Assembly (NCBI GenBank): GCA_041946735.1
Contig: JBHGAY010000002.1
Span: 102,368-166,367 of the forward strand
Direction: 5' to 3'
DNA length: 64,000 nt
Origin: Candidatus Eiseniibacteriota bacterium
GTDB taxonomy: Bacteria; Eisenbacteria; RBG-16-71-46; CAIMUX01; VGJL01
Below are positions 5,789-64,000 of the stretch, one piece after another. Both the position numbers and the translations under genes were made by a program. The notes under the pieces were generated by a model that saw only the letters and a list, made by a program, of their open reading frames with translations, was not told the DNA's origin and ran no database searches. Numbering within the stretch: position 1 is the stretch's first letter; each line of letters opens with the position of its first letter.

Positions 5789-8431
5789 ATGTCTTGCGCG
5801 CGCCACGGTGCGATCGTCGCGTTCCCCGTCCTCGCCTTGCTGCTCCTCGTCTTCGCCGCTCTGGCCGATCCTCCCCCGATCTCGCAGGAAACAGGCCTCG
5901 ACCACGGCTTCCGGTACTCCTACGACGCGACCATGGCGATGGCGGCGTCGGCCGCCCTCAGCGACTCCTCCGTCCTCTTCTGCTGGAGCGAGGACTCCCA
6001 CGTGATGGCGATCCCGTTCGGCAGGAGCGGGGAATCGATTGGAGGCAACCGCACGGTCCTGTTCGAGGGATCCTATCCGGACCTCTCGTCGCCGGATGCG
6101 AGCGGCTGGAAGATCGCGGCGCGCGGCGGGGGCACTCTCCACGTCCGCAACCTCGATCCCGCCTCGCTCGCGACGACGATCGACCGCACGATCGGGACGA
6201 CGCCGGGCGCGGCGATCGAGAACCCGGAGATCGCGAAGATCGGCGACGCGCACGTCGTCGCCTGGCAGGAAGCGGCGGGCTCGACGTACGCGTTGCGTAT
6301 GCAGCGCTTCGACTCGCTCCTCGAGCCTCTCGATCCCGAGCCGATCGACCTCGGTCCGTGCAGCGAGCGGACCTGCGATCTCGCGTCGACGGACAGCGGC
6401 GGAATCCTGATCTACGTCGATGGTGCCGGGGAGGCGGCGGTTCGGCTCCTCGGAGCGGACGGCCTCCCAGCCGGCGATCCGCGCCCGCTCGACGCTACAG
6501 AGACGTACGATCCCGAAGTGGCGGCGTGCCCCTGCGGGGATGGATGGTTCGTCGCCTGGAGCCGCACGTCCGGGATCGGCGCCGCTTTCCTCGCGGCGGA
6601 CGGCTCCCTCCTGGCTCCGGGGATCCTCGGCCTCTCTCCGTACCCGGACTACGGCATGTCCGCATCCGAGGATGCGGAAGGCGGCGTGCTCCTCGCGTAT
6701 CGCGAGGACGGCTACGCCATCTGGGCGCAACGTCTGCGGGCGGGAGTGGGAGCGGTCGGAAACCCGCTCATCCTCTCCGGCGACGCGCCGTACCTGGCGT
6801 TCGGCTTTCCAATGGATCTCCGGGAAGTGGCGTGCGCGTGGACAGGCGAATGCTTCGCCGTCGCGTGGACCAGCTATCACGACCCGCCCGTCGGCGGCGA
6901 TCGTCGCGAGGGCGGTGGCGCGCGGGATCGCAACTGGTTCGGCGCCTTCCCGGTCTACTCCCAGTGGGTAGCGCCGGACGGCGGGTTGCTGTACGGCAAT
7001 CCGTTCCCGATCAACGTGCTGAGCTCGCCGGCCGAGGCGACCGTCGTTCGTCACCGGGACACGTCCCTCGCGATCGTACGGGACGGGATGCGGGGCGAAT
7101 GGCTGCACACGCTCGTCCTCGGCCCCGAGGGCGGCGTCATCGAGACCCCCGCGCGTTACCGCACCGCCGCGGAGCCGGACGACTGCGAGCTGTGGGATTG
7201 TGAAACGTGGAGTATCGATCAATTGGCCGCAGCTCGAGACGGGACGGGCGCGGCGGTCGGCTACCGGCTGCGCACTCACTTTTCGAACGAGTACTACGAG
7301 ATGGACGCGGCCTATCTCGTGATCGATCGCCTTGCGGCGGACGGCTCGTTCCTCGATCGCGCTTCGAGCTCCCTCTACATCGGAAACAGCGAGCTTACGT
7401 CCTTCGCGATCGTCCCGATCAACGAGACGCGCATCCTCGGGGCGTACACGGCCGACGATTGGGGCGGCCGCGCACCCGAGAGCGGCTACGTGCAGCTCCT
7501 CGACTGGAGCACCGGCGAGCCGATGGCGAGCTGGCGCCTTCATCGGGAGGACAACTTGACTCCGGTGACGGGAATCACCGCAGCGCCCCTTCCCGGCGGC
7601 ACGCGGTTCCTGATCGCCTGGAACGAGGGCGGCGCGCTGCGCGCGGGCGTTCTCGACCTCGACGATCCTCCGGACGAGATCGTCGGCGCCGTCGTGCCTC
7701 CATCTGCGCCTCTCGCCGGCCGCCCGCGGCTGATCGCCGGTGAGAGTCAGGTTCTCTGCGCGTATCCGGCCGAGCGGGCCGATGGGTCGGACATCGAGGC
7801 GGTACGCTTCGACGCGCAGGGCGAGCCGATCGACGCGACGCCGATCGTCCTCTGCGGGATCGCCGGATCCCAAGGGAACGTGGACGGCACGTGGGACGGG
7901 GACCGCTGGCTCGTCACCTGGTCGACCACGGGCTACGGCGTCCCCCACGAGCTGCGTGGCAACCGCGTCGATCCGGCCGGGGTCGCTCTCGATGGCGACG
8001 GCTTCGCGATTGCGCCGGACATCCGGGTCCCCGCGAGCGTCTCCTCGGACGGCGGCGGCCTCGTTTCGCTCGTCCACAGCGCGCGGCGCTTCCTCTGGAT
8101 CGACGATACGGAGGGATCGTCCGCCGTGGAGGAGCAGGCGACGGCTGCGCTCTCGCTCTCGGGCGTGCGCCTGGGCCCGAGCCCGACGACCGGGACGGTG
8201 CGCCTCGCCGCGCCGCTCGCCAGCGGCACGCGCGCGAAGGTCACGATCGTCGACGCGGGCGGGCGTGTCGTGGCGGTGCGCGCCCTCGACGGCTCGGGCG
8301 GCCTCGATGCACGCCTGCTCTGGGACGGCCGGCGTGACGACGGCACACGCGCTCCCGCCGGGCTGTACCTGGTCCGGATCGAGTCGCCGGAAGGCGCGGC
8401 GACGGCGCGGAAGATCTTGCTCGTCCGCTAA
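5789..8431 (+). CDS. secreted repeat (β-propeller-like) protein with a T9SS-type C-terminal sorting domain
   Basis: Signal peptide MSCARHGAIVAFPVLALLLLVFAALA. Recurring hhAW blade-like motifs (VVAWQEA, FVAWSRT, AVAWTSY, LIAWNEG, LVTWSTT). The C-terminus is ...LLWDGRRDDGTRAPAGLYLVRIESPEGAATARKILLVR. GGAGG RBS. Confidence 0.75.
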   Translation: MSCARHGAIVAFPVLALLLLVFAALADPPPISQETGLDHGFRYSYDATMAMAASAALSDSSVLFCWSEDSHVMAIPFGRSGESIGGNRTVLFEGSYPDLSSPDASGWKIAARGGGTLHVRNLDPASLATTIDRTIGTTPGAAIENPEIAKIGDAHVVAWQEAAGSTYALRMQRFDSLLEPLDPEPIDLGPCSERTCDLASTDSGGILIYVDGAGEAAVRLLGADGLPAGDPRPLDATETYDPEVAACPCGDGWFVAWSRTSGIGAAFLAADGSLLAPGILGLSPYPDYGMSASEDAEGGVLLAYREDGYAIWAQRLRAGVGAVGNPLILSGDAPYLAFGFPMDLREVACAWTGECFAVAWTSYHDPPVGGDRREGGGARDRNWFGAFPVYSQWVAPDGGLLYGNPFPINVLSSPAEATVVRHRDTSLAIVRDGMRGEWLHTLVLGPEGGVIETPARYRTAAEPDDCELWDCETWSIDQLAAARDGTGAAVGYRLRTHFSNEYYEMDAAYLVIDRLAADGSFLDRASSSLYIGNSELTSFAIVPINETRILGAYTADDWGGRAPESGYVQLLDWSTGEPMASWRLHREDNLTPVTGITAAPLPGGTRFLIAWNEGGALRAGVLDLDDPPDEIVGAVVPPSAPLAGRPRLIAGESQVLCAYPAERADGSDIEAVRFDAQGEPIDATPIVLCGIAGSQGNVDGTWDGDRWLVTWSTTGYGVPHELRGNRVDPAGVALDGDGFAIAPDIRVPASVSSDGGGLVSLVHSARRFLWIDDTEGSSAVEEQATAALSLSGVRLGPSPTTGTVRLAAPLASGTRAKVTIVDAGGRVVAVRALDGSGGLDARLLWDGRRDDGTRAPAGLYLVRIESPEGAATARKILLVR

Positions 8432-11236: not shown

Positions 11237-13264
11237 ATGCCGTTTCGAAGGACCGGATCCGTCTTCCTCCTGCTTCTCCTGCTGTGGGCCGCGACCGCCG
11301 CTTCCCCGGCATTTGGGCCGCCGGCTTCCGGGCCGCTCGCTTCCGAGCGGCTCGCCTCCGAGCGGCTCGCCTCGGTGCCGCTCCCGAAGGGACAGGCGTT
11401 CGTGGATCCGCCGGGAGGCGCGATCGGTCCGCTCCAGACGATCCGGATCGTTTCGCGATGGGACTCGGCGGGCTACGCGATCGCCCCCGACTTCTCGGAG
11501 CTGGAAGGCGGAGAAGCGGGCGACTTCGCCGTCGCGGACAGCGGCAACGGCTCCTACCTGATCGTGTATACGACCGGCCCGATGGCGGGGCTCTCGAGCG
11601 CCGCGGGCCTGACGATCCCGATCCAGGCGACGAACTCGATCCAGGGGAGCTTCACCGATCGCACCCTCCGCGCATGCCGCAATCTCGGCCGCCGGCCTGA
11701 GCACATCGCGACCGAGATCGTTCGCCCGCTCGAGGTCTACCATCCCGGCGACTCCCTCGTCGTCCGCACGCGCTGGCAGCAGGGCGACGCCTCGGGGATG
11801 ACCGTCACCGCGGATTACGCATCGCTCGCTAAGCCGGGCTCCGGCGTGCCGGCGCAGACCGTCGCGATCGTCGACACGCTCCTGCAGATCAAGGAGTACA
11901 CCTTCTCGTGGAAGATCCCGGGGGTCGGGCAGCTTCTCCAGGAGGGCAACGACCTGCCGCTCACCTTCGTCGGCCGCGATGCGCTGTGCAGCGAGGTGCG
12001 GGTCTCCCCGGTGACGATCGACCTCCGCCTGAGCGGCGCCCCCGCGCTCCTCTCGCACCGGGTCCTCGAGCCGGCCGGCCGCGGCGTTCGTGCCGGGGAC
12101 ACGCTGATCCTCTCCTGCGTCTGGGACCGGCCGGGCTACGACCTGCGGCCGGACTTCTCGGCGCTAGATGGCACGAGCGGCGACGGCAGCTTCGCGGTCG
12201 TCGACCTGGGAGGCGGCAGCTACGAGATCCGCCACACGGTCGCCCCGCTCGGCGATCTTCCCGACGCGCTCGTGCCGGTGCCGGTCACGGCGACCGATCC
12301 GTTCGGGGATCGTTTCACCGACAACTCGATCTCGATCAGCCGCAACCGGTCCACGCCGGGGCCGGTGCATCTGGGAACCGACACGCGGCGCTCGCGCCGC
12401 GTCTACAAGGGCAACGACTCGCTCGTCGTCGTCAGCCGCTGGACGCACCCGGCCGGCCTCGGCATCCAGATGCGCCCGCTGTTCACCGGGCTCGTTCCCA
12501 CGTTCGCCGACACCGAGGCGGTCGTGACGCGGCGCGGCGTCCCTTCCTCGGTCGACACCTTCTTCGTCGCCTACCGGCTCCCGCAGAAGGAATCGGGGCT
12601 CCTCGCTCCCGACGGAGAGCGGATCCGCATCGGCGTCGTCGCTCGCGACTCGCTCTGGACCGAGGTCGTCTACGACTCGATCCTCGTCGATCTCGACACG
12701 AAGGCGCCGCCGGCCTCGCCCACGCTCGACCCTTTGCCGGCGAGCACCGACGTAAGTCATATCCTGGTGACCGGCATCGCGCCGGAGGCCTACGCCGTCG
12801 CCTTCATCCGCAACGACGTGCTGCGCTTCCGCTCGCCGGTCGACAGCTTGACCGGACGGTTCGAGGCGGAGATGGATCTCGTTCCCGGCTCGAACAAGAT
12901 CACCGCTTGGGGGGAGGACTTCGCCGGCAACAAGACCCCGCTCGGGAACAACGTCTTCACGAACTACATCACCGGCAGGGTCACGAGCTACCCGACGCCG
13001 TTCCGCCCGGAGGACGAGATCTCCGTCGGCGATCCGGAGGGAATGCAAGAGGCGCTTGTGCAGATCTACAACCTGGAAGGGGACGTCGTTCGCGAGTTCC
13101 GCCAGGAGGGAGGAAGCTTCTTCGAGGCTCGTTTCGAATGGGACGGGAAGGACGTCGACGGGAGGATGGCGCAGCCGGGCTACTACCTGGTTCGCATCCA
13201 CCGGACGTCCACGAGCGGGAAGACGCGCAACGAGGTGAGCTCGATGCTCTTCCGGACCAACTGA
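11237..13264 (+). CDS. secreted Ig-like repeat surface protein with a T9SS-type C-terminal sorting domain
   Basis: Signal peptide MPFRRTGSVFLLLLLLWAATAASPA, then (LASER)x3. Three internal ~90-aa repeats (IRIVSRWDSAGYAIAPDFS..., TLILSCVWDRPGYDLRPDFS...). The C-terminus is ...EARFEWDGKDVDGRMAQPGYYLVRIHR...LFRTN. The upstream part of ORF 9560.. is antisense junk. Confidence 0.75.
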   Translation: MPFRRTGSVFLLLLLLWAATAASPAFGPPASGPLASERLASERLASVPLPKGQAFVDPPGGAIGPLQTIRIVSRWDSAGYAIAPDFSELEGGEAGDFAVADSGNGSYLIVYTTGPMAGLSSAAGLTIPIQATNSIQGSFTDRTLRACRNLGRRPEHIATEIVRPLEVYHPGDSLVVRTRWQQGDASGMTVTADYASLAKPGSGVPAQTVAIVDTLLQIKEYTFSWKIPGVGQLLQEGNDLPLTFVGRDALCSEVRVSPVTIDLRLSGAPALLSHRVLEPAGRGVRAGDTLILSCVWDRPGYDLRPDFSALDGTSGDGSFAVVDLGGGSYEIRHTVAPLGDLPDALVPVPVTATDPFGDRFTDNSISISRNRSTPGPVHLGTDTRRSRRVYKGNDSLVVVSRWTHPAGLGIQMRPLFTGLVPTFADTEAVVTRRGVPSSVDTFFVAYRLPQKESGLLAPDGERIRIGVVARDSLWTEVVYDSILVDLDTKAPPASPTLDPLPASTDVSHILVTGIAPEAYAVAFIRNDVLRFRSPVDSLTGRFEAEMDLVPGSNKITAWGEDFAGNKTPLGNNVFTNYITGRVTSYPTPFRPEDEISVGDPEGMQEALVQIYNLEGDVVREFRQEGGSFFEARFEWDGKDVDGRMAQPGYYLVRIHRTSTSGKTRNEVSSMLFRTN

Positions 13265-13294: not shown

Positions 13295-14314
13295 ATGATC
13301 GATCGCCGCGACCCGGCAGCCGCCCGCGGGCAGGCGCCCACGATCTCGACCTCCCTCTCTCGCCGCGTGCGCGGCCCGCTGTCGCTCGCTCTTCTCGCGG
13401 CCTCGCTCGTCGCGATTCTCGCCTGCGCGGCGCCCGCGCGCGCGCAGGTGGCCGGAGCGTTCCCGCATCTCGAGCCGTGGCCGGCCGCCCTCGCCCTCGG
13501 AGGCGCCGAGGAGGGGCTCGGGCGCGGAACGGAGGCGACGCTCGAGAATCCCGCCGGGATGCTGGCCGTCCCGGGCAAAGGTTTCGCCTTCTCGCACGCC
13601 TCGCTGTTCGAGGGCGGGCTCGTGCACCACCAGGCGGCGGCGATCTCCTGGGCGCGTTCGGCGAAGCGGATGCGCTGGCAAGGCTCGAACATCGTCACGG
13701 AGGCCGGCGAGGTGCGATCGGCGTGGGGCCTCGCGTTGACGAACCTCTCCGGCGATCTCCCGGGGAGCGACACCTACGGCGAGCTGCAAGTCGGCGTCGC
13801 CTACGCGCGCCGCCTTCCGCTCGCGATCGACGGCGGAATTCGCGTCCGCTTCCTGCAGGCGCGGAGCACCGTCGACGGCTCCGATGGAGGGGGCTACGCG
13901 CTCGACCTCGGCCTGTCCGGCGAGATCGCCGGCTTCCGCCTCGGAGGCGTCGCGCGCTCCTTCTTCTCCGACACGCGTTGGGACCGCTCGCTGGACGAGC
14001 CGCTCCCGGCCGGCTTCGACCTCGCGCTCGAGCGCCCGCTCGCCGGCGGCGTCTCGTCCCGCTTCGGCGCGACGATCCGCGAGAACGGGGAGCCGCAGCG
14101 GGTGACCGGCGGGGCGTCGTGGGACGTCCCGGGAATGCCGCTCGCCCTGCTCGGGGCCGCCTCGCTGCGCGATACGCGCGCCGAGAACCGCGTGGAGCCG
14201 TCGGCCGGCGCCACGTTCCGCGTCGGGATCTTCGCCGCCGCCTACGCGGTCCGCTTCGGTCCGGCCGGACTCGGCGAAATCCATCGCTTCAGCCTCCGCG
14301 TCGCAGTTCCCTGA
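13295..14314 (+). CDS. outer-membrane β-barrel, PorV/PorQ/PorP-like T9SS-associated family (putative)
   Basis: A signal peptide ends ...APARA|QVAG. The N-terminal motif is LALGGAEEGLGRGTEATLENPAGMLAVPG (GGA..G.G..A...NPAGL-type). Alternating β-strand pattern; C-terminal ...SLRVAVP. It sits 30 nt after the cargo gene. Confidence 0.6.
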   Translation: MIDRRDPAAARGQAPTISTSLSRRVRGPLSLALLAASLVAILACAAPARAQVAGAFPHLEPWPAALALGGAEEGLGRGTEATLENPAGMLAVPGKGFAFSHASLFEGGLVHHQAAAISWARSAKRMRWQGSNIVTEAGEVRSAWGLALTNLSGDLPGSDTYGELQVGVAYARRLPLAIDGGIRVRFLQARSTVDGSDGGGYALDLGLSGEIAGFRLGGVARSFFSDTRWDRSLDEPLPAGFDLALERPLAGGVSSRFGATIRENGEPQRVTGGASWDVPGMPLALLGAASLRDTRAENRVEPSAGATFRVGIFAAAYAVRFGPAGLGEIHRFSLRVAVP

Positions 14315-18491: not shown

Positions 18492-19967
18492 TCAGAGGCT
18501 CAGACCGGCGGTCAGCCTCAGCATTGCCACGCGGCGGTCGACATCGACGACCGTGGACTGCGGGTTGATGAAGGGATCGCCGGGCGACTCGTAATAGAAC
18601 TTCCTCAGCTTGTAGTCGACGATCTCGTAGGCCACGTCATAGCGAAGATTGCCCGTCTCGAATCCGAGACCGAACGTGAAGGAGTCGGTGTCGATGTCGC
18701 CTCCCGCCCACTGGTCCGGATCCGGGCCGCCGTTGAGCTTCGCGACGGACAACGGTCCTCTGTGATATCCGATCCGCAGGGGAAGGTCGATTTGCTTGAA
18801 CCGCAGCCAACGTCCCTCGGCTCCAATGTGGAAGCTCGTGACGTCGCGAAGCGGAAGCGACGGGTTCGATTCCATCCCCAGGAAATCCTCCCGGTACTCG
18901 ATCTTCGTCTCCGACCAGTTCTGGCGGTTCACCTCGACCGCCACCCGCACCTGTGGGATAGGCTGGAACCAGCCGCCGATCGACAGGAGCGCCGGGACGT
19001 CCATGTCGTAGCCCGCGATCCTCCCGAAGATGCGCTGCTGCGGAGCGCCGGGAGCACTGAGAACGAGGTAGTCCAGCCGGCCGCCGGTCACCTCCACCGT
19101 GTAGCCGGGCGTGAACCGCACGCCGATCCCGCCGAAGTTCGGGCGCCGCGCCTGGATGCCCAGGTCGGCCGAGATGCCTCGATAGCGATAGCGCGTCTTC
19201 AGGTATCCGCCCGCCGAGTTCGCGCCTCCGGTCGCGACGATCGACTCGATCTTCGAGCTGAGGCGGCCGGTCAGGTAGTTCAAGTTCGCCCCGACCGACA
19301 CCACATCGGGGATCAACTGCGCGGCGGCGGAGGCGGAGGCCGCGTCGACGCCTCCCTCTTCCTTGCCATCGACCGCGAGAGTCACCGGGAAGGCGAGCCC
19401 TTCGCCGAAGACAAGATCCGAGACGATCTCCTCCGGATAGGACGTGTCGAGGTAGCGGCGGAAGCTGATCGCGCCGGCGACCGGACGCCCGAGCAGCTCG
19501 CCCGAGATCCCCGCGCCGAGCATGTTGCCCCGGAGGTTCGACTTCAGATTGACGTCGTACCGCTGCACGGCGAGCAGCGGCGAGTTGGGAATATTGAACG
19601 TGTCGGGATATCCCGAGGTCGAGCCCGAGGATCGGATCCAGCGAAGGTCGCCGGTCACGTTCGGGCGCTGGAGCCATCCCAGCCCGGCCGGGTTCCACGA
19701 GATCGCCTGCAGATCGGTGGCCTCGCCGACGTAGGCGCCACCCATTCCATGACCCACCGCGCTCGCGCGCACTCCGGTCATGTCGAGCGGCCGGAAGACG
19801 AGCGACGGCTGGAGCGTCTCCAGCGTGGCGATCCCGATCGTGCCGAGGTCGGTCTCGACCAACTGTGCGGAGACCGGCGAGGGCATGAGAGCCGCGGCGC
19901 AGGCGACGAGAGCGAGCGCGAAGATGGCCGGGGCTGCGAGACGACGAACGACACCCACTCCTCTCAT
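18492..19967 (-). CDS. outer-membrane β-barrel, PorV-like T9SS-associated family (putative)
   Basis: The start is the internal ATG at 19967, with the signal peptide MRGVGVVRRLAAPAIFALALVACAAA. The motif GMGGAYVGEATDLQAISWNPAGLGW is present and the C-terminus is ...LRLTAGLSL. ORF-track residues 1-150 are junk. Confidence 0.65.
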   Translation of the reverse strand: MRGVGVVRRLAAPAIFALALVACAAALMPSPVSAQLVETDLGTIGIATLETLQPSLVFRPLDMTGVRASAVGHGMGGAYVGEATDLQAISWNPAGLGWLQRPNVTGDLRWIRSSGSTSGYPDTFNIPNSPLLAVQRYDVNLKSNLRGNMLGAGISGELLGRPVAGAISFRRYLDTSYPEEIVSDLVFGEGLAFPVTLAVDGKEEGGVDAASASAAAQLIPDVVSVGANLNYLTGRLSSKIESIVATGGANSAGGYLKTRYRYRGISADLGIQARRPNFGGIGVRFTPGYTVEVTGGRLDYLVLSAPGAPQQRIFGRIAGYDMDVPALLSIGGWFQPIPQVRVAVEVNRQNWSETKIEYREDFLGMESNPSLPLRDVTSFHIGAEGRWLRFKQIDLPLRIGYHRGPLSVAKLNGGPDPDQWAGGDIDTDSFTFGLGFETGNLRYDVAYEIVDYKLRKFYYESPGDPFINPQSTVVDVDRRVAMLRLTAGLSL

Positions 19968-32103: not shown

Positions 32104-32137
32104 CAGGGCTTCCTCCTCGTCCGGCCGCCGCCGTCTG

Positions 32138-32821
32138 TCATCGCGTCAAGGCGTATACGACCACGTTGATCGCCATCCGCATCGCCTGCTCGCGCTTCTC
32201 CGGCGGATCGTTGTGCACCTCGGGATCCTCGATCCCATCTCCGATATCGGACTGGTAGGTGTAGTAGACCATCAGCCTGTTGCCATCGAAGATCCCGAGC
32301 CCCTCGGCCGGTTTCCCGTCGTGTTCGTGGATCTTCGGGGGACCCTTCGGGAAGTCGTAGAAGGAATGGTAGATCGGGTGGCGGAACGGAACAGGGGTGA
32401 GCTTGCGGTCGGGGAAGACGCGGGCGATCTCCCTCCGGAAGCTCTCGTCCATCCCGTAGTTGTCGTCAGCGAAGAGGAAGCCGCCGTTCTCGAGATAGCG
32501 GCGCAGCCGCTCCACCTCGGCGTCGCTCCACCTCACGTTGCCGTGTCCGTTCATATAAAGGAACGGATGCTGGAAGAGATCCGGGTCGAGGATCGACACC
32601 CGGTCCTCATCCATTCGTTCGATCGCCACCGGGGTGCGGTCACGCAGCGCGCGCGCCAGGTTCGGCAGGCTCGAGGGGTTGCTGTACCAGTCGCCTCCCC
32701 CGTCGTACTTCATGCGGGCCAGAACGAAGCCGGTCGGGGCTTCGGCCGCCGACCGGTCCAGGATCCCGGAGCCCGGGATCCCGACGATGAGCAGGAGAAC
32801 GAACGAGAGGATTCTGCGCAT
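32138..32821 (-). CDS. DUF4159-like secreted protein
   Basis: Signal peptide MRRILSFVLLLIVGIPGSG. Motifs are YDGGGDWYSNPSSLPNL, HPFLYMNGHGNVRWSDAEVERLRRYLENGGFLFADDNYG. The family name is from memory. Confidence 0.65.
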   Translation of the reverse strand: MRRILSFVLLLIVGIPGSGILDRSAAEAPTGFVLARMKYDGGGDWYSNPSSLPNLARALRDRTPVAIERMDEDRVSILDPDLFQHPFLYMNGHGNVRWSDAEVERLRRYLENGGFLFADDNYGMDESFRREIARVFPDRKLTPVPFRHPIYHSFYDFPKGPPKIHEHDGKPAEGLGIFDGNRLMVYYTYQSDIGDGIEDPEVHNDPPEKREQAMRMAINVVVYALTR

Positions 32822-33947: not shown

Positions 33948-33983
33948 GATTCCCCTGCCTCTTTCCCCGGGATCCGGGCCCCG

Positions 33984-36629: not shown

Positions 36630-36732
36630 CGGTATCTCTCCTCGGACGCCAGTGTCACCTGTCGAAACCACTCGATTCTAGCACATGGCCATGTCTGTCT
36701 CACGCCCCCGCCGCCGCCCGGATCCACCCGTC

Positions 36733-37293: not shown

Positions 37294-37356
37294 CCGGCGC
37301 CGCCGCAACGGCCACCCGCCCCGAACCACAGCGCCGCCCGTGCTCGTCCGCATGGC

Positions 37357-41091: not shown

Positions 41092-43611
41092 CTATGGCAG
41101 CCGGACGATCCTCTCCGTCCTCGTGACGGCGCCCGCTGTCACCCGGCAGAAGTAGATCCCCGACGGGGCGCGGCGCCCTGCGTCATCCCGGCCGTCCCAG
41201 AGGACCTCATGCATTCCGGCGCCTTGCTCAGAACCCTCTCCTAGCGAGCGGACTCTCCTTCCCGAGAGATCGAGCAGATCGACCTGCACCGGCATCGGGC
41301 GGGCGATCTCGTAGTGGATCGACGTCGTCGCATGGAACGGGTTGGGGCCCGCGGGGAAGAGCTTCAGATCGTCGAACGGGCGGATCGCCGGCTCCCCGAC
41401 CGCGGTCTGGCCGGGAACGAAGAGCGTCACGTCGTCGATGTACCATCCCTCCCCCGTCGGCTCCTGCCCGCGCGTGCCGAACCGGAAACGGAAGGAGAGG
41501 ATCTGCCCCGCGTACGCCTCGAGAGGGACGACGACCGGCGTCCAGTCGAAGGATCCCGACCAGAGAGGGGTGCCGGTCACGAACGGGACGACCGTGAAGC
41601 GCCGCCAGACGTGGTCGTAGCCGCCTTCGATCGGTTGCAGCGTGAACCAGCTGGCGCCCGAGTCGGTCGAAGCCTCGAGGATGCCGCCGTCCCCGGCCGT
41701 CGAATCGTCGACCGCGTAGGCGTCCATCCAGTGCCAGAAGATCAGTCGAGACCCGTCGGGGACGCGGACGAGCGGCGATTGCAGGTAGGCGTGGATCCGG
41801 GTTCCGTACGGGCCGTCACCGGCGTCCCCGCACTTGTACGAGGTCTGCCCGCCGTCCGTATGGTTGCGCTGCTGGCTCAGGTGCCAAGCGTCGGTGTATC
41901 CGACGGTCAGGGAATCGTGCCTCCACTCGGCCGCGCTCGGGCCCTCGAACCCCTCCTCGATCGAGGCGACGAGGTCCGATGCGAGGACGACGGAGCGGTT
42001 GGCGTTCACGCGTCCCCATCCGAAGTACATGTCCCAGCCGGGGGAATCCTCGTTGGGCGGGCCGACCTGATCCTCGGCCCCCTCCTCGAGCATCGCGCGC
42101 ACCTGATGGGCGTCGAGCGAGGGCGCGGCGCTCCAGATCAAGGCGCAGATGCCGGCCGTGAGCGGTGTGGCCGACGAGGTGCCGTTGAACGTCGTCGTGT
42201 AGTTCGTGCCGCTGTAGCCGGCGACGCCGGTCCGGTCGGTCGTGGTGATCTTGACTCCCGGCGAGATCACGTCCAACTCGGCGCCGTAGTTGCTGCCCCA
42301 GAAGTTCTCGCCGTCGCAGGAGGTGTAGCTCTTGCGCTGGTCGCACGGGCTGCTCGCGCCGCACGCGATCGTCTCCGGATAGCGAGCGGGATAGTTGACG
42401 TCGTTCGCGTTGGAGTTGCCCGAAGCGAAGACCATGATGCAGTCGAGCGCGTCGGCGTTGATGACCGCGTCGTGCACCGCGGTGAAGTCCCCCGACGACA
42501 TCCGCCACGAGCAGGACATGACGAGCCCCGTGAACTCCGCGCGCCGGCTGGCCGCATAGTTGATCGCGTCCGCGCGATTCTGGTTCATTCCGGAGCCGAG
42601 ATCGACGCGCAGCGGCATGATCCGGCAATGCGGCGCGATGCCGCTGACGCCGAGGGAGTTGTCCTGGACGGCGGCGGCGATTCCCGAGCAGCACGTGCCG
42701 TGCGCGTCCTCGTCGTCGGGGCTGCCGTCGGGACCGTTCGCGAAGTCCCAGTCCTCGCCGTTGCGGGGGAGGAAGTTGTCGCGAAGGTCCTCATGGTTCA
42801 AGTCGGCGCCCGTGTCGATCACGGCGATGATGACGTTCGGGTCTCCCTTCGTGATGTCCCAGGCGAGCGGCGCCTCGACGTCCGCCCCTGGCGTTCCGCC
42901 TCCTTGTCCCGTGTTGTTCTCGGACCACTGCTGCGGGAAGAGCGGATCGTTCGGGATGCTCAGCGCATCGTCCCAGAGCAGATAGGACGGTTCGGCGAAC
43001 AGCACCTCCGGGTCGGCGTAGAGCCCGCGAACCGCCGCGAAGACGGACAGTCCCGGAGGAAGGACGATCGTGTAATAGCCGGGCGTCCAGTGATCCTCCA
43101 GGACCGAGGCGCCGAACGCATGGATCTTCTCGATGCACCGCTCCGGGGAGACGCCCGAGCGGTAGCGGACGGTCGCCTCTCCCTCGAGGTAGTACTTCGT
43201 GAACCCCTCGGCGTCGATCACGGCCGGGATCGCCGACGCGACGCCCACCTCGGCGCGGAGACGCGGCGCCAGGTCCGCCGGGGTCGTGGCGCGCGACACG
43301 CGATAGACGGCCGCGCGGGTCTCCGGATCGAGAGGATGGACGGGGACGAGGCCGTAGCGGTTCTCGACGATCTCGCGATCGAGACTGCTCGCCGCGCGGT
43401 CGTACCGGACGAGGATCTCCTCGGTCGATTGCCGCAGATCCCATGGCTTGCCGAAGCGTGTGTCGAACCAGCTCCCGTCGAAGGAGGCGGCGGGCGAGGC
43501 GGCCGCCACGCCGGTGAGCAGAGCAGCGACGAGCAAGGCGCGGCGTAGCGGGACGAGCGAAGACACGGAATTGGTGCGGCGGGAAGGCAGCAGGGCCCCT
43601 CGGTCGGACAT
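41092..43611 (-). CDS. subtilisin-family (S8) serine protease with a T9SS-type C-terminal sorting domain
   Basis: The catalytic triad lies in VIAVIDTGAD, HGTCCSGIAAA and GTSSATPLTAG. The C-terminus is ...VQVDLLDLSGRRVRSLGE...VLWDGRDDAGRRAPSGIYFCRVTAG...IVRLP. Confidence 0.85.
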   Translation of the reverse strand: MSDRGALLPSRRTNSVSSLVPLRRALLVAALLTGVAAASPAASFDGSWFDTRFGKPWDLRQSTEEILVRYDRAASSLDREIVENRYGLVPVHPLDPETRAAVYRVSRATTPADLAPRLRAEVGVASAIPAVIDAEGFTKYYLEGEATVRYRSGVSPERCIEKIHAFGASVLEDHWTPGYYTIVLPPGLSVFAAVRGLYADPEVLFAEPSYLLWDDALSIPNDPLFPQQWSENNTGQGGGTPGADVEAPLAWDITKGDPNVIIAVIDTGADLNHEDLRDNFLPRNGEDWDFANGPDGSPDDEDAHGTCCSGIAAAVQDNSLGVSGIAPHCRIMPLRVDLGSGMNQNRADAINYAASRRAEFTGLVMSCSWRMSSGDFTAVHDAVINADALDCIMVFASGNSNANDVNYPARYPETIACGASSPCDQRKSYTSCDGENFWGSNYGAELDVISPGVKITTTDRTGVAGYSGTNYTTTFNGTSSATPLTAGICALIWSAAPSLDAHQVRAMLEEGAEDQVGPPNEDSPGWDMYFGWGRVNANRSVVLASDLVASIEEGFEGPSAAEWRHDSLTVGYTDAWHLSQQRNHTDGGQTSYKCGDAGDGPYGTRIHAYLQSPLVRVPDGSRLIFWHWMDAYAVDDSTAGDGGILEASTDSGASWFTLQPIEGGYDHVWRRFTVVPFVTGTPLWSGSFDWTPVVVPLEAYAGQILSFRFRFGTRGQEPTGEGWYIDDVTLFVPGQTAVGEPAIRPFDDLKLFPAGPNPFHATTSIHYEIARPMPVQVDLLDLSGRRVRSLGEGSEQGAGMHEVLWDGRDDAGRRAPSGIYFCRVTAGAVTRTERIVRLP

Positions 43612-61401: not shown

Positions 61402-62277
61402 CTACCGCTCGGCCGAGCCCTCGAGCAGCGCCGTCGCTGCGGTGGCCGCCTCGCGGCCGCTCTCCTCGATCGACCGTCCCGCCCGCCGCCACCACGAATA
61501 GACCGCGAGGAACGTGTCGCCGAGTCCGACCGGCTCGCCGCCCAGCCGGCGAGGCGGAACGGCCGCGACCTCGACCGGCTGCCCGGCGCCGGCGGCGATG
61601 CGCGCCCCGTGGTCCCCGCGCGTCACGACGATCTCGCTCGCGATCTCGGCGAGCGGCGGAGCCCCTGGGGAGCCCGCCAGCGCGTCCACCTCCGACTCGT
61701 CGCCGCAGAGGACGGCGAGCGGCGGAAGCTGCGCGACGAGCGGGTACGCGGCAGGGACGACGACCGCGCCGGGATCGGCGGCGCGCACGAGCCCCTGGAT
61801 GCCGAGATGGAGCGGCCGCCCGCACTGTGTGAGCGCCGCCAGCAGCGACGCCGGCAGGTCGCGTGGCAAGAGCGGCCCGAGCAGCACCCATGCGGCCTCG
61901 CTCAGCGCCTGCGCGCCGATCCGGTCCGCGTCGACCGGGTCGGAGGCGGAGACGGCGAAGAGCCGGCGCTCGTTCGGGCGCGCGCGATCGAACTCGAGGC
62001 GGAAGCGGGTCGTTTCGCGCGAGGGATGTTCGACGACGCGCACGCGCGCGGGCAGCGCGCCGAGCAGGTCGCGATCGCGTGCGGCGAGCGGGGTGTGGAG
62101 GATCACGCGGGCGCCGAGCCGGTCGAGCGCGCGCGCCGCGTAGAGTCCCGCTCCTCCCGCGCGCACGAGCCCGCTCGGGAGCTCATCGCGGCAAAGCGGC
62201 GCGATCAGGAGGACCGGCCTCGGCGCGCGGCCCAACGAGGGAGCAGCGCGAAGCGGCCGCGGCGGGCGAGCGCTCAC
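61402..62277 (-). CDS. PfkB-family carbohydrate kinase (ribokinase-like)
   Basis: The C-terminal motif is PVGLGDTFLAVY (GAGD-T-F type). The GTG start at 62277 overlaps the peptidase stop (GTGA). ORF-track residues upstream are junk. Confidence 0.75.
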   Translation of the reverse strand: MSARPPRPLRAAPSLGRAPRPVLLIAPLCRDELPSGLVRAGGAGLYAARALDRLGARVILHTPLAARDRDLLGALPARVRVVEHPSRETTRFRLEFDRARPNERRLFAVSASDPVDADRIGAQALSEAAWVLLGPLLPRDLPASLLAALTQCGRPLHLGIQGLVRAADPGAVVVPAAYPLVAQLPPLAVLCGDESEVDALAGSPGAPPLAEIASEIVVTRGDHGARIAAGAGQPVEVAAVPPRRLGGEPVGLGDTFLAVYSWWRRAGRSIEESGREAATAATALLEGSAER

Positions 62278-64000
62278 CGGAGCTTCAGGAGCCGGAGCGT
62301 CGCCTCCTGGCCGCCGCCCGCGGTCCGCATGCGCAGGAAGTAGACGCCGGACGGCAGATCGCGGCCGTCCTCGTCGCGCCCCTTCCAGATCAGGTCGTGG
62401 CGTCCCGCCGGGCGATCCTCGTCGAGAAGCTGCGCGACGCGGCGTCCCTGCACATCGAACAGGTCGAGGCGCACGCGATCGGCTGCGAGCATGTCGAAGA
62501 GGATCGTCGTGTCGTCCCGCAACGGCGACGGCCAGGCGCCGACGAGCCGTGATCGCGCCGAGAAGGCCGGCTCGGGAGCAGAGACGACGCCGACGAGCCG
62601 CACGTCGTCGACCGCCGCCTCGTAGAGCGATGCGGAGCCCCCGTCGTCGGCGACGAAACGCAGGCGCATCCGGTCGGTCAAGGGCCACCGCGTCTCGAGA
62701 TCGTGGAAGGTGACCTCCGCCCATGCGGCGTCGCCGCCACGCACGCTTTCGAGGACCGTCCAGCTCTCGCCGTCGTCGTTGGACAGCAGCACGAGGAGCG
62801 AGTCGTCCGGCACCGTGCCGTCGACGAACCAGCGCGAGTAGGAAAGGACGACCTGCCGGGCGCCGGCCAGGTCGATGCGCGGAGAGGTAAGCGTCGTGCG
62901 GCCGCCATCGACGTCCGCCTCGCCGGTCGGCGCGCCTTCGGGCGCGTTGCCGGTGACGAAGCAGGCTCCCGAGCTGTCCCCTTCGGCGTCGATCGCCGGC
63001 TGCGCGGAGGTGCCGACCGGCGGCTCCCGGACCCACAACCCGCTCGTCGCGCCGTCCTCCGGACCGCCGATCGTCCAGCCCTGATCCGCGTCGAAGCTGT
63101 CGGCGAAGAGCGCTTCGCGGCCGACGACGAACGAGAAGGTTCCGTCGTACGGGTCGGTCGCCGCCCGTCCCTCGAGATCGCGCGCGCGAATCGCATACTC
63201 GACGCGCCGGCCGGGTCGCTGACGCGGGATCGTGTAGGAGTAGCGCACCGAGTCGTCGACCGAGCGCATCCGCCCGATCGTCCACGCCCCGCCGTCCACG
63301 CGCCACCGCACGACGACGCTGTCGGCCTCGAGCGGCGCGATGTACGAGAAGATCTGCGCGGTCACCGGGTAGCCGTCGCCGCCGATCGCGGGATCGTGCA
63401 ACGGCTCGTGCTCGATCCGCACGCGCAGCGGCCTCGCGTAGCTCGCGAGCAAGGCGACCGCGGACTGCACGTTCGCCCGGAGGAACGGAAAGCTGTTCAG
63501 CCCGATTCCGATCCGGTCGGTCGAGCGGTGGTAGGCGGGATTCGGCGGATTCTCCCCTTCGAAAAAGAAGATCGCGGCGTAGCCGTTGTTCCAGAACGAC
63601 TGCTGATCCGAGTTGCCGCCGCTCAGCGTCGACTCGCGAAACCGATGGCCGGGAAGGTAGGTCTCGATCGCCTCGTAGGTGCGCTCGATGATCTCCGGAT
63701 ACGACGGATCGGTGATGAGGTCGAGGTCGGGATCGGCTCCGGCGTAGCCGATCATGTCGAGGTTCACCATCCCCCGGATGTCGAGAGCCAGGTCCGCCGC
63801 CTGCCCCGCCCATGCCGCGCTTCCGTGCAGTCCCTGCTCCTCCCCGGAGAAGCAAAGGAAGATCAGCGTCGCCTCGAACGGCTCGGGCGCGAGCACGCGC
63901 GCCGCCTCGAGCACGCCGGCGGTGCCCGATCCGTTGTCGTCCGCTCCCGGAGAAACGGGAACGGAGTCGTAGTGCGCGCCGATCACGTAGATCTCGTCCG
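62274..64000 (-). CDS. M28-family aminopeptidase with a T9SS-type C-terminal sorting domain (the 5' end runs past the window end)
   Basis: The Zn ligands are in GAHYDSV...GADDNGSG...SGEEQGLHGS. The C-terminus is ...VRLDLFDVQGRRVAQLLD...LIWKGRDEDGRDLPSGVYFLRMRTAGG...LRLLKLR. The frame stays open to 64000 (...DEIYVIGAHYD). Confidence 0.8.
   Translation of the reverse strand, partial: DEIYVIGAHYDSVPVSPGADDNGSGTAGVLEAARVLAPEPFEATLIFLCFSGEEQGLHGSAAWAGQAADLALDIRGMVNLDMIGYAGADPDLDLITDPSYPEIIERTYEAIETYLPGHRFRESTLSGGNSDQQSFWNNGYAAIFFFEGENPPNPAYHRSTDRIGIGLNSFPFLRANVQSAVALLASYARPLRVRIEHEPLHDPAIGGDGYPVTAQIFSYIAPLEADSVVVRWRVDGGAWTIGRMRSVDDSVRYSYTIPRQRPGRRVEYAIRARDLEGRAATDPYDGTFSFVVGREALFADSFDADQGWTIGGPEDGATSGLWVREPPVGTSAQPAIDAEGDSSGACFVTGNAPEGAPTGEADVDGGRTTLTSPRIDLAGARQVVLSYSRWFVDGTVPDDSLLVLLSNDDGESWTVLESVRGGDAAWAEVTFHDLETRWPLTDRMRLRFVADDGGSASLYEAAVDDVRLVGVVSAPEPAFSARSRLVGAWPSPLRDDTTILFDMLAADRVRLDLFDVQGRRVAQLLDEDRPAGRHDLIWKGRDEDGRDLPSGVYFLRMRTAGGGQEATLRLLKLR

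What the first reader, a model, noticed from the sequence alone, without database searches (positions are those of the whole stretch)
5789..8431. Four unrelated secreted proteins share one C-terminal sorting-type domain (T9SS-like signature)
Four proteins end with the same ~70-aa block. The proteins are 5789..8431 (a β-propeller-like protein), 11237..13264 (an Ig-repeat protein), 41092..43611 (an S8 protease) and 62274..64000 (an M28 peptidase). The shared block reads V.LDL.D..GR.V..L.......G.H...WDGRD..GR..PSGVYF.R......KIVLLR, a conserved C-terminal β-sandwich (FlgD-Ig / T9SS-CTD-like) appended to cargo with different catalytic or adhesive N-terminal parts. That is the hallmark of a dedicated CTD-dependent secretion and anchoring pathway. 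No core translocon genes (SprA, PorK/L/M/N, GldK-N) lie in this window, so the machinery must sit elsewhere.
Basis: partly seen in the sequence, partly recalled or inferred. Interest (0 to 1): 0.6.

Follow-up and report, generated by a model that had tools for sequence, protein, structure and literature searches.

The report
Type IX-style secretion tags, Eisenbacteria
Four otherwise unrelated exported proteins of an uncultured Eisenbacteria genome end in the same small beta-sandwich domain, a variant of the known type IX secretion sorting tag, so this is an ordinary, unannotated example of a known system and not a new one.

Summary
Four ORFs end in one homologous ~85-90 aa domain: A 5789-8431, B 11237-13264, C 41092-43611 and D 62274-64000. 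An HMM built only from 120 outside homologues scores them 44-105 bits. The next best ORF in the window scores 4.5, and shuffled controls reach at most 7.4. There is no fifth copy.

The domain lies between Pfam FlgD_ig and the T9SS type A CTD. All four pass the FlgD_ig gathering score. On TIGR04183, only C passes as a full-length protein. A, C and D pass when the last 110 aa are scored alone, and B fails.

The AF2 model (pLDDT 93) is an Ig-like sandwich that superposes on the PorU and PorZ CTDs and on FlgD about equally well. In 80 related genome loci, 148 of 148 scorable copies are single and end 0-6 aa from the stop codon. Every locus with a phylum label belongs to an FCB-type phylum, and 79% of the copies pass TIGR04183.

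The organism is Candidatus Eisenbacteria. T9SS core genes are absent from the window, and I could not check the rest of the genome.

The best reading is Sec-exported cargo carrying a type-A-like T9SS tag (confidence about 0.7). It is a new member of a known kind, of low to moderate interest.

The parts
5789..8431 (+). Protein A, 880 aa. It has an N-terminal signal-peptide-like segment (MSCARHGAIVAFPVLALLLLVFAALA), an all-beta region that looks like a tandem beta-propeller, and the C-terminal tag. GenBank MFB3907110.1, annotated 'hypothetical protein ACE15D_01805'.
   Evidence: No Pfam family covers the first ~790 aa. The AF2 model has mean pLDDT 65 (80-90 over residues ~50-330), and all of its Foldseek PDB hits are tandem beta-propeller proteins. 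The orthologue P0002 (36% identity over 97% of the length) keeps the tag at its very end.
8171..8428 (+). C-terminal tag (CTD) of protein A
   Evidence: 51 bits on the external family profile. FlgD_ig 27.3 bits against a cut-off of 27. TIGR04183 scores 20.1 on the full-length protein and 25.8 on the last 110 aa, against a cut-off of 23.
11237..13264 (+). Protein B, 675 aa. GenBank MFB3907114.1, 'hypothetical protein ACE15D_01825'.
   Evidence: BLASTP against itself shows no internal repeat.
12986..13261 (+). C-terminal tag of protein B, the most divergent of the four
   Evidence: 44 bits on the external profile, with the last strand unaligned. FlgD_ig 27.4 bits. TIGR04183 scores 11.7 and 16.5, both below the cut-off. 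It matches the CTD ends of the PorU (27 bits) and PorZ (24 bits) models.
13295..14314 (+). Gene g12, 339 aa, 30 bp downstream of B. It has a signal peptide and is a candidate outer-membrane barrel with weak PorV/PorQ-family similarity. It may be an accessory of the pathway. GenBank MFB3907115.1, 'hypothetical protein ACE15D_01830'.
   Evidence: NF033709 PorV_fam E 1.6e-7, 31 bits against a cut-off of 90; PorQ E 0.011. Weak match in two same-order stretches covering the N-terminal ~60% (E 1e-6) to a profile of PorV/PorQ-family proteins from related loci (two above the NF033709 cut-off, one just below). No Pfam hit and no PDB sequence hit. No relatives were found by either collection scan.
41092..43611 (-). 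Protein C, 839 aa. It has a signal peptide, a fervidolysin-like prodomain, an S8 subtilase domain, a MAM / choice-of-anchor-J-like domain and the tag. GenBank MFB3907136.1, 'S8 family serine peptidase'.
   Evidence: Peptidase_S8 1.3e-43; Fervidolysin_NPro-like 2.4e-7; choice_anch_J 26.7 bits against 30.
41095..41358 (-). C-terminal tag of protein C
   Evidence: 105 bits on the external profile. FlgD_ig 34.1 bits. TIGR04183 scores 25.8 and 31.5, both above the cut-off. AF2 model pLDDT 92.9.
62274..64000 (-). Protein D, at least 574 aa, with its N-terminus beyond the end of the window. It has an M28 aminopeptidase domain, a middle region with weak similarity to C's MAM-like domain, and the tag.
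   Evidence: Peptidase_M28 1.7e-33. Weak C-D match, E 0.002.
62277..62546 (-). C-terminal tag of protein D
   Evidence: 98 bits on the external profile. FlgD_ig 31.0 bits. TIGR04183 scores 19.5 on the full-length protein and 24.7 on the last 110 aa.

Best explanation
The four genes encode exported cargo proteins of a Candidatus Eisenbacteria bacterium: a tandem-propeller protein, a protein of unknown fold, an S8 protease and an M28 aminopeptidase.

Each is most likely taken across the inner membrane by Sec, through an N-terminal signal peptide. Each is then recognised in the periplasm through its C-terminal Ig-like beta-sandwich, which is a FlgD_ig-like variant of the type A C-terminal domain (CTD) of the type IX secretion system. 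By analogy with Bacteroidota, the folded CTD would be bound by the SprA/Sov outer-membrane translocon and a PorV-type shuttle barrel. The cargo would then be released or fixed on the cell surface, probably after the CTD is cut off by a PorU-type sortase.

Shown here: the homology of the four C-termini, their relation to T9SS type A CTDs and to FlgD_ig, the fold, the strictly terminal single-copy position across the family, and the restriction of close relatives to FCB-type phyla.

Inferred, not shown: the signal peptides (read by eye), the presence of the T9SS machinery in this genome, and the cleavage and anchoring steps.
For: 1. Homology well above chance: 44-105 bits on a profile of external sequences, against 4.5 for the next ORF; shuffled ORFs reach at most 7.4 on the family profile A2.

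2. HMM membership. On TIGR04183, C passes as a full-length protein, and A, C and D pass on the terminal 110 aa. In a sample of 150 family members (the 4 window copies plus 146 from related genome loci), 118 match TIGR04183 at E<=5e-5, which I estimate equals its 23-bit cut-off. 113 match the CTD end of the PorU model, and 81 match the CTD end of a 'T9SS-dependent M6-like' model.

3. NCBI already names close homologues 'T9SS type A sorting domain-containing protein' in Eisenbacteria and Latescibacteria.

4. Position. In 80 related genome loci, 148 of 148 ORFs that run to a stop codon carry exactly one copy. 140 of them end exactly at the stop and the rest within 6 aa. 118 of the 120 closest database hits also end with the domain within 2 aa of the C-terminus.

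5. Cargo diversity. The parts upstream of the tag are unrelated in the window. In the loci they include M6-like proteases, a cytochrome c, and NHL and TreS-like proteins. C carries a 'choice-of-anchor J'-like domain; by my recollection of NCBI's 'choice-of-anchor' families (not checked here), that class is defined by sitting in front of alternative sorting signals.

7. The glycine in the strand beta3-beta4 loop, shown to be needed for RgpB secretion (PMC11285876), appears to correspond to a glycine invariant in all four tags (G35 in 'D-x-x-G-R-x-V'); the correspondence was judged by eye, from the stretch of the RgpB CTD matched.

8. Taxonomy. All 53 labelled loci are from FCB-type phyla: Eisenbacteria, Krumholzibacteriota, Fibrobacteraceae, KSB1, Cytophagia, Gemmatimonadota, Cloacimonadota, Latescibacterota, Calditrichota and Zixibacteria. 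The literature places T9SS in this same group (PMC11285876, PMC11205867).

9. Machinery hints.
- PorV/PorQ-family genes lie close to tag-bearing genes in related genomes: L026 scores 225 bits and L062 113 bits, above the 90-bit cut-off; L043 (76 bits) falls below it.
- L062 comes from the same MAG (contig prefix CAYYQN01) that holds the orthologue of protein A.
- In the window, a weak PorV/PorQ-like barrel follows B, and a BamG-like barrel is present. BamG is reported to co-occur with SprA across FCB phyla.
Against: 1. No T9SS core gene (SprA, PorK/L/M/N, PorU, or a PorV that passes its cut-off) was found in the 64 kb window. None was found among the ORFs I scanned in 80 related loci (the five largest ORFs without a tag and the 38 largest with one), and no T9SS Pfam family was on record in 3 further contexts. 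The rest of this genome was out of reach.

2. Pfam's own T9SS model PF18962 is failed by all four (15.3 bits at most, against 27). Only 32 of 150 family members pass it.

3. As full-length proteins, three of the four fall below the TIGR04183 cut-off. NCBI's pipeline left them as 'hypothetical protein' or plain 'S8 family serine peptidase'.

5. The same core domain occurs as 3-16 internal tandem copies in giant proteins. Of the 150 best representatives, 82 lack a copy within 12 aa of the end. The fold as such is therefore not exclusively a terminal signal.

6. NCBI taxonomy does not place Eisenbacteria formally inside the FCB group.

7. No paper in the library mentions T9SS in this phylum.
Confidence: 0.7

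Rival explanations
1. The domain is only a structural or binding Ig-like module of the FlgD/Vpr kind, of the sort often appended to secreted hydrolases and adhesins. It would have no role as a sorting signal. The proteins would stay in the periplasm or leave by another general route.
Against: A generic module would not be confined to one copy ending 0-6 aa from the stop codon in 148 of 148 cases. It would not be restricted to FCB-type phyla.

Terminal copies cover the ends of the profile more often than internal copies do. The N-terminal 'PNP' segment is covered in 76% against 28%, and the last strand in 26% against 1%. That points to a distinct terminal subtype.

79% of the family pass the T9SS type A model. 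The beta3-beta4 glycine needed for secretion appears to be conserved (matched by eye).
Confidence: 0.15
2. The tag is a real sorting signal, but it is read by a lineage-specific pathway that differs from the Bacteroidota T9SS. One possibility is a reduced system without the PorK/L/M/N motor. Another is a set of cargo-linked PorV/PorQ-like barrels such as the gene downstream of B.
For: The tag forms its own subfamily, nearer to FlgD_ig than to PF18962. A divergent PorV/PorQ-like barrel is encoded 30 bp after cargo B. PorV/PorQ-family genes sit next to tag genes in related loci, and some of them match the 'PorV2' model best. No core T9SS gene was found among the candidate ORFs scanned in about 1.2 Mb around tag genes.
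Against: Not finding core genes in a small, non-random sample of loci says little. The expected number was below one to a few, and only selected ORFs were scanned.

The tag family is shared with Cytophagia and Fibrobacteraceae MAGs. From my own knowledge, not tested here, those groups carry standard T9SS genes. The literature reports SprA in all FCB phyla except Chlorobiota (PMC12611786).

The gene after B has no detectable relatives in either collection scan, so no conserved pairing could be shown.
Confidence: 0.12
3. These are flagellar hook-cap (FlgD) proteins or fragments, as the JGI pipeline labels many family members.
For: The JGI name 'flagellar hook assembly protein FlgD' is attached to dozens of hits. 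The FlgD_ig domain match and FlgD are the top PDB sequence hits.
Against: Only the Ig-like insert of FlgD is matched. The FlgD equivalog models score 23-33 bits against cut-offs of 230 or more. In the window the domain is fused to a protease, an aminopeptidase, a propeller protein and a protein of unknown fold, with signal-peptide-like N-termini on A, B and C (D's is outside the window). No flagellar gene is nearby.
Confidence: 0.01

Closest known systems
T9SS type A C-terminal domains (TIGR04183 / Pfam PF18962), e.g. P. gingivalis RgpB, PorU and PorZ, T. forsythia mirolase, F. johnsoniae NucA
   Same: - Size of about 80-90 aa, at the extreme C-terminus, in a single copy.
- Attached to unrelated cargo with signal-peptide-like N-termini (A, B, C).
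- A glycine that appears to correspond (judged by eye) to the conserved one in the beta3-beta4 loop.
- A basic-hydrophobic last strand.
- A host range confined to FCB-type phyla.
- Three of the four tags pass TIGR04183 when scored alone.
   Different: - It carries a strong 'W-D-G-R/K-D-x-x-G-x-x-x-x-S/A-G-V/I/L-Y' motif that it shares with FlgD. I did not see this motif in the PorU, RgpB or PorZ CTD matches.
- It fails PF18962.
- By sequence it is nearer to FlgD_ig than to any solved T9SS CTD.
- The host is Eisenbacteria, where no T9SS has been described and none could be checked here.
Ig-like domain of the flagellar hook cap protein FlgD (Pfam PF13860 FlgD_ig; PDB 7eh9, 3osv, 3c12)
   Same: It gives the best sequence-profile and Foldseek matches among solved structures: E 2e-12, 30-36% identity to the Salmonella FlgD chains (23-26% to P. 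aeruginosa FlgD), TM about 0.6-0.67. The 'WDGxDxxGxxxxxGxY' motif is shared.
   Different: In FlgD the domain is an internal part of the protein (residues ~68-136 of 180 and ~120-188 of 232 in the matched chains); from my own knowledge FlgD is a cytoplasmically made, flagellar-exported protein without a Sec signal peptide. Here the domain is terminal, in proteins with signal-peptide-like N-termini. It has an extra 'PNPF' N-terminal segment and a last strand that the FlgD alignment does not cover (profile positions 30-97 of 110 only). Full-length FlgD models are failed by a wide margin.
Domain of the Bacillus S8 peptidase Vpr (PDB 8jmw); from memory, InterPro groups an Ig-like domain of Vpr with FlgD's
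   Different: From my own knowledge, Bacillus is a Firmicute with no outer membrane and no T9SS. Identity is only 15%. This shows that the fold alone does not prove a sorting role.
PorV/PorQ family outer-membrane barrels (NF033709), and BamG of the Bacteroidota BAM complex
   Same: Gene 13295-14314 has a weak match, in two same-order stretches, to the PorV/PorQ family. Gene 18492-19967 matches the BamG model and, by profile, PDB 9hiv_F, an 'Outer membrane protein' chain that I take to be BamG from the F. johnsoniae BAM study (not verified) (E 1.8e-16).
   Different: Both score far below the family cut-offs (31 and 43 bits against 90; BamG 35 against 250). No role in secretion is shown for either gene.

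Membership tests
T9SS type A CTD cargo (TIGR04183 / PF18962) | Score at or above the curated TIGR04183 cut-off of 23 bits | tested here: inconclusive
   Full-length proteins: C 25.8 (pass), A 20.1, D 19.5, B 11.7. Last 110 aa alone: C 31.5, A 25.8 and D 24.7 pass, B 16.5 fails. In the wider family, 118 of 150 match at E<=5e-5, which I estimate equals 23 bits.
T9SS type A CTD cargo (TIGR04183 / PF18962) | Score at or above the Pfam PF18962 (Por_Secre_tail) gathering score of 27 bits | tested here: not met
   A 11.8, B 12.7 and D 15.3 bits; C is not listed at E<=1. Only 32 of 150 family members match at E<=5e-6.
T9SS type A CTD cargo (TIGR04183 / PF18962) | The domain sits at the extreme C-terminus, in one copy, on cargo of unrelated function | tested here: met
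   All four end 0-2 aa from the stop on the four-sequence profile. 148 of 148 copies in related loci are single and end within 6 aa of the stop. The parts upstream of the tag are unrelated.
T9SS type A CTD cargo (TIGR04183 / PF18962) | N-terminal Sec signal peptide | tested here: inconclusive
   A, B and C begin with a basic stretch, then a hydrophobic stretch, then small residues. I read this from the sequence and ran no predictor. The N-terminus of D lies outside the window.
T9SS type A CTD cargo (TIGR04183 / PF18962) | Ig-like beta-sandwich fold like the solved CTDs, with the beta3-beta4 loop glycine and a C-terminal motif (PMC11285876) | tested here: met
T9SS type A CTD cargo (TIGR04183 / PF18962) | The host genome encodes the T9SS core (SprA/Sov, PorK/L/M/N, PorU, PorV) | not testable with these tools
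   None is in the window. The rest of the 265,622-bp contig and of the MAG could not be fetched. None was found among the candidate ORFs scanned in related loci. PorV/PorQ-family genes above the cut-off do occur beside tag genes in L026 and L062.
T9SS type A CTD cargo (TIGR04183 / PF18962) | Occurrence restricted to the FCB superphylum | tested here: met
   All 53 labelled loci of the best 80 are from FCB-type phyla, and 27 carry no label. The sample is biased towards close relatives of the Eisenbacteria tag. NCBI taxonomy lists the phylum under 'Bacteria candidate phyla'.
T9SS type A CTD cargo (TIGR04183 / PF18962) | The CTD is needed for export and is removed by the PorU sortase | not testable with these tools
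   This needs proteomics or genetics.
T9SS type B CTD (TIGR04131 / Pfam CHU_C PF13585) | Match to TIGR04131 or CHU_C at the C-terminus | tested here: not met
   TIGR04131 gives no hit at E<=1. CHU_C gives only E 0.14 at the end of D, and E 0.0071 at an internal site of C. 2 of 150 family members match CHU_C.
Flagellar hook cap protein FlgD | Match to a full-length FlgD model above its cut-off; from my own knowledge FlgD has an N-terminal part and a Tudor-like domain around the Ig-like domain | tested here: not met
   Only the Ig-like part matches. FlgD equivalog models score 23-33 bits against cut-offs of 230-383. The architectures are a protease, an aminopeptidase, a propeller protein and a protein of unknown fold.
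PorV/PorQ family (for gene 13295-14314) | NF033709 score of at least 90 bits | tested here: not met
   31.2 bits, E 1.6e-7, covering model positions 12-157 of 326. There is a weak match in two same-order stretches to PorV/PorQ-family proteins from related loci. No structure could be modelled because no alignment was available.

The most novel reading that the evidence does not exclude
The FlgD_ig-like tag is a separate class of outer-membrane sorting signal used by Eisenbacteria and neighbouring non-Bacteroidota FCB phyla. It would be read by a reduced or different apparatus, for example cargo-linked PorV/PorQ-like barrels such as the gene after B, and not by the standard Bacteroidota T9SS. 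It would also be the sequence intermediate that ties T9SS CTDs to the Ig-like domain of the flagellar hook cap FlgD in evolution.
Probability: 0.1. Interest if true: 0.6.

Novelty: new member of a known kind. Interest (0 to 1): 0.25.

Why it matters
Practically, it corrects annotation. Two of these proteins are 'hypothetical' in GenBank, one is only 'S8 family serine peptidase' (the record for D, which is cut by the window, was not looked up), and the JGI pipeline labels many relatives 'flagellar hook assembly protein FlgD'. Reading them as secreted or surface cargo identifies part of the extracellular protease and adhesin set of an uncultured soil and sediment phylum.

About 9% of the genes in this window carry the tag. 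44 of 80 related loci hold two or more tag genes within 20 kb. Tag-dependent export is therefore probably a major route in these organisms.

More broadly, this family passes FlgD_ig much more often than Pfam's own T9SS model (127 against 32 of 150). Surveys based on PF18962 alone would therefore miss most T9SS-type cargo outside Bacteroidota. None of this changes how T9SS is understood, unless the genome turns out to lack the core machinery.

Tried and rejected
1. Reaching the rest of the source genome. Exact-protein look-ups for glnA, the HD-domain protein and the PfkB kinase found nothing. C is held only on a 24 kb Logan contig that lies inside the window. EtfB is held on a 1.8 kb contig. 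The T9SS core therefore remains untested.

2. Looking for SprA and PorU in related loci. The five largest ORFs without a tag turned out to be an RND pump, a GltD/PreA-like oxidoreductase, a TolB-like protein, a histidine kinase and one with no hit. The 38 largest tag-bearing ORFs contain no PorU at E<=1e-40. Three Mb-scale contexts showed no T9SS Pfam family.

3. Gene 18492-19967 as PorV. Rejected. Its family profile hits PDB 9hiv_F, which I take to be the F. johnsoniae BAM subunit BamG (1.8e-16), and TbuX/TodX. It does not hit PorV. NCBI calls it hypothetical.

4. Relatives of the gene after B. Two collection scans found none. There are no homologues in the 80 loci. hhalign against the BamG-like family matched only the shared 'GGA...NPAG' N-terminal motif.

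A four-sequence alignment with an invariant 'WDGRDDAG' worked.

6. Literature. No paper links Eisenbacteria with T9SS. One broad phylum search was uninformative.

7. Fold comparison as a way to separate FlgD from the T9SS CTD. Rejected as non-discriminating.

8. Protein A as a PorZ homologue (two propellers plus a CTD). There is no sequence match outside the CTD, and PorZ is not among the top 50 Foldseek hits.


Full report
**What is there.** The window has about 70% G+C. It comes from an uncultured Candidatus Eisenbacteria bacterium. Proteins A, B, C and the gene after B are exact matches to GenBank proteins of one MAG, with locus tags ACE15D_ and a contig of 265,622 bp. A second, fragmented MAG of the same organism also matches.

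- A, 5789-8431, + strand, 880 aa.
- B, 11237-13264, + strand, 675 aa.
- C, 41092-43611, - strand, 839 aa.
- D, 62274-64000, - strand, with its N-terminus beyond the end of the window.

C has a fervidolysin-like prodomain, an S8 subtilase domain (1.3e-43) and a MAM / 'choice-of-anchor J'-like domain. D has an M28 peptidase domain (1.7e-33). A and B have no family match upstream of the shared block. A, B and C start with signal-peptide-like sequences. I read this by eye and ran no predictor.

**Is the shared block real?** Yes.
- The last ~90 aa of the four align with 22-39% pairwise identity and 11 invariant positions.
- A profile built only from 120 external homologues scores C 105, D 98, A 51 and B 44 bits. 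The next best of 504 six-frame ORFs in the window scores 4.5 bits.
- The family profile A2 (which includes the four) reaches at most 7.4 bits in five shuffles of all the ORFs.
- There is no fifth copy.
- Outside the block the proteins are unrelated by BLASTP, apart from a weak C-D match (E 0.002) in the MAM-like domain.

**What the block is by sequence.**
- All four reach the Pfam FlgD_ig gathering score: 27.3, 27.4, 34.1 and 31.0 against 27.
- All four fail Pfam Por_Secre_tail: 15.3 bits at most, against 27.
- On NCBI's T9SS type A model TIGR04183 (cut-off 23 bits), only C passes as a full-length protein (25.8; A 20.1, D 19.5, B 11.7).
- When the last 110 aa are scored alone, C (31.5), A (25.8) and D (24.7) pass and B (16.5) does not.
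- The type B model gives nothing.
- The tags also match the CTD ends of the PorU, PorZ and 'T9SS-dependent M6-like protease' models.
- Against PDB sequences, a 124-sequence family profile hits true FlgD best (2e-12), then the PorU CTD (5e-6), the RgpB CTD (2e-4) and the PorZ CTD (2e-4).

The family is therefore a sequence intermediate. It has the 'WDGxDxxGxxxxxGxY' motif of FlgD's Ig-like domain. It also has an N-terminal 'PNPF' segment and a basic-hydrophobic last strand (family consensus 'T-R-K-L-V-L-L-R') that the FlgD alignment does not cover.

**What the block is by structure.** AlphaFold2 with the family alignment gives a confident beta-sandwich (pLDDT 92.9).
- Foldseek ranks FlgD first (TM 0.6-0.67), followed by PorZ, PorU, the RgpB CTD, the translocon-bound NucA CTD and the mirolase CTD.

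The fold fits a T9SS CTD, described as a compact Ig-like 3+4 sandwich (PMC11285876), but it does not discriminate. That paper shows that the beta3-beta4 loop, with one conserved glycine, is needed for RgpB secretion. A glycine in what appears to be the corresponding position (judged by eye from the RgpB stretch matched) is invariant in the four tags ('D-L-S-G-R-R-V' in C).

**Position and distribution across the family.** This evidence best separates a sorting tag from a generic module.
- A scan of one genome per GTDB species with the invariant stretch 'WDGRDDAG' returned at least 540 confirmed places, of which the best 80 loci (1.16 Mb) were kept.
- In these loci, 151 ORFs carry the domain. 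All 148 that run to a stop codon carry exactly one copy. In 140 of them it ends exactly at the stop, and in the other 8 within 6 aa.
- 44 of the 80 loci hold two to four such genes within 20 kb.
- Of the 120 closest hits in the 5.8-billion-protein collection, 118 end with the domain within 2 aa of the C-terminus.
- All 53 loci with a phylum-level label are from FCB-type lineages: Eisenbacteria 22, Krumholzibacteriota 7, Fibrobacteraceae 7, KSB1 5, Cytophagia 3, Gemmatimonadota 3, Cloacimonadota 2, Latescibacterota 2, Calditrichota 1 and Zixibacteria 1.
- Of 150 tag segments (the 4 window copies plus 146 from these loci), 118 match TIGR04183 at E<=5e-5, 127 match FlgD_ig and only 32 match PF18962.
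- NCBI already names close homologues 'T9SS type A sorting domain-containing protein' or 'FlgD immunoglobulin-like domain containing protein'. JGI calls many of them 'flagellar hook assembly protein FlgD', which their domain architectures contradict.

**A caveat from the exhaustive search.** The four-sequence profile matches 284,863 cluster representatives at E<=0.001. The top 150 are giant proteins with 3-16 internal tandem copies, and only 68 of them have a copy within 12 aa of the end. The beta-sandwich core is therefore also used as an ordinary repeat module.

Terminal copies differ from internal ones, however. They cover the first 8 profile positions in 76% of cases against 28%, and the last strand in 26% against 1%. 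This suggests that the terminal tag is the core plus end segments.

**The machinery.** NCBIfam and Pfam scans of the genes without an obvious function found none. Two points modify the picture.

First, the gene 30 bp downstream of B (13295-14314, 339 aa, with a signal peptide) has a significant but sub-threshold match to the PorV/PorQ family: E 1.6e-7, 31 bits against a cut-off of 90. It also has a weak match, in two same-order stretches, to a profile of three PorV/PorQ-family proteins found in related loci (E 1e-6).

Second, the gene at 18492-19967 (491 aa) is a FadL-type barrel. Its family profile hits an 'Outer membrane protein' chain of PDB 9hiv, which I take to be the F. johnsoniae BAM subunit BamG (1.8e-16), and does not hit PorV. 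BamG is reported as conserved in FCB phyla, and its absence as coinciding with absence of SprA (PMC12611786). That is only circumstantial.

In related genomes, PorV/PorQ-family genes above the curated cut-off lie close to tag-bearing genes: next to one in L026 (225 bits) and about 4.5 kb from one in L062 (113 bits); L043 (76 bits) falls below the cut-off. L062 is from the same MAG (contig prefix CAYYQN01) that carries the orthologue of protein A.

I could not fetch more of the source genome. My searches for SprA or PorU in the related loci found none. Given how little of any one genome was sampled, this says little.

No paper in the library mentions T9SS in Eisenbacteria. Reviews place T9SS in Bacteroidota and, probably, in other FCB phyla (PMC11285876, PMC11205867).

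**The cargo at the stated coordinates.** Protein A has one clear orthologue, P0002 (36% identity over 97% of the length), with the tag conserved at the very end. Its AF2 model is of medium quality (mean pLDDT 65; 80-90 over residues ~50-330) and is all-beta. Every top Foldseek hit is a tandem beta-propeller protein such as EMC1, DDB1 or LRP6.

The layout of two propellers plus a CTD recalls PorZ. There is no sequence match outside the CTD, and PorZ is not among the top hits.

**Conclusion.** The most likely mechanism is Sec export, followed by recognition of a folded C-terminal Ig-like tag by a T9SS-type outer-membrane translocon and shuttle, and then release or surface attachment.
- Shown: the domain homology, the terminal single-copy rule, the diversity of the cargo, the fold, and the FCB-restricted distribution.
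- Inferred: the signal peptides, the presence of the machinery in this genome, and cleavage and anchoring.

I put this reading at about 0.7. A non-sorting structural module gets about 0.15, and a lineage-specific variant pathway about 0.1.

It is a new, unannotated member of a known kind. The main practical value is better annotation, together with the point that Pfam PF18962 alone would miss most such cargo outside Bacteroidota.

Noticed in passing
window 18492-19967 (- strand): A 491-aa FadL-type outer-membrane barrel, conserved at 45-56% identity in many Eisenbacteria contigs. Its family profile hits an 'Outer membrane protein' chain of PDB 9hiv, which I take to be the Flavobacterium johnsoniae BAM subunit BamG (E 1.8e-16), and TbuX/TodX. 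The NCBIfam BamG and PorV_fam matches are sub-threshold. This suggests a Bacteroidota-style BAM complex in this phylum.
   Followed up: partly
window 13295-14314 (+ strand): A hypothetical 339-aa protein with a signal peptide, 30 bp after cargo gene B. It has a weak PorV/PorQ-family match (31 bits against a cut-off of 90). Two collection scans and the 80 related loci gave no relatives, so it looks like a lineage-specific orphan.
   Followed up: partly
window 25563-32821 (- strand): A run of four genes: an unknown 455-aa protein, a 602-aa TPR protein, a 1119-aa protein with a weak DUF4175 match, and a DUF4159 protein (6e-67). It resembles the Bat/aerotolerance-type clusters of Bacteroidota. SecD and SecF follow at 33000-35552.
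   Followed up: no
window 35997-39363 (- strand): Three consecutive genes (193, 206 and 668 aa) with no Pfam or NCBIfam match at all. They lie between secDF and the histidine kinase next to protease C.
   Followed up: no
proteins P0126-P0275: Giant proteins of up to 7,779 aa carry 3-16 tandem internal copies of the same FlgD_ig-like core. Internal copies mostly lack the first ~10 and last ~10 profile positions that terminal tags have.
   Followed up: partly
L082 10001-10411, L083 10001-10435, L084 10001-10282: On Mb-scale contigs the tag also occurs as stand-alone called genes of 93-144 aa with no cargo. These may be split genes, mis-called starts, or real tag-only proteins.
   Followed up: no
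one search hit table; There are annotation problems. JGI labels dozens of these tags 'flagellar hook assembly protein FlgD', and one 'F420-0:gamma-glutamyl ligase'. In GenBank, A and B are 'hypothetical protein' and C is only 'S8 family serine peptidase', with no mention of a sorting domain.
   Followed up: yes
window 5789-8431: Protein A has the same overall layout as the T9SS component PorZ (two beta-propellers plus a CTD). No sequence similarity outside the CTD was detected, and PorZ is not among the top 50 Foldseek hits.
   Followed up: partly
L026 1114-3861; L062 2682-3818; L043 3-884 and 13473-14474: PorV/PorQ-family genes lie beside or near tag-bearing genes in a Calditrichota MAG (L026, 225 bits, directly upstream) and an unlabelled MAG related to this one (L062, 113 bits, about 4.5 kb away), both above the 90-bit NF033709 cut-off. 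The scanned Latescibacterota copy (L043 13473-14474) scores 76 bits, below it; the second L043 copy was seen only with a local profile. The scanned copies in L062 and L043 match the 'PorV2' model best.
   Followed up: partly
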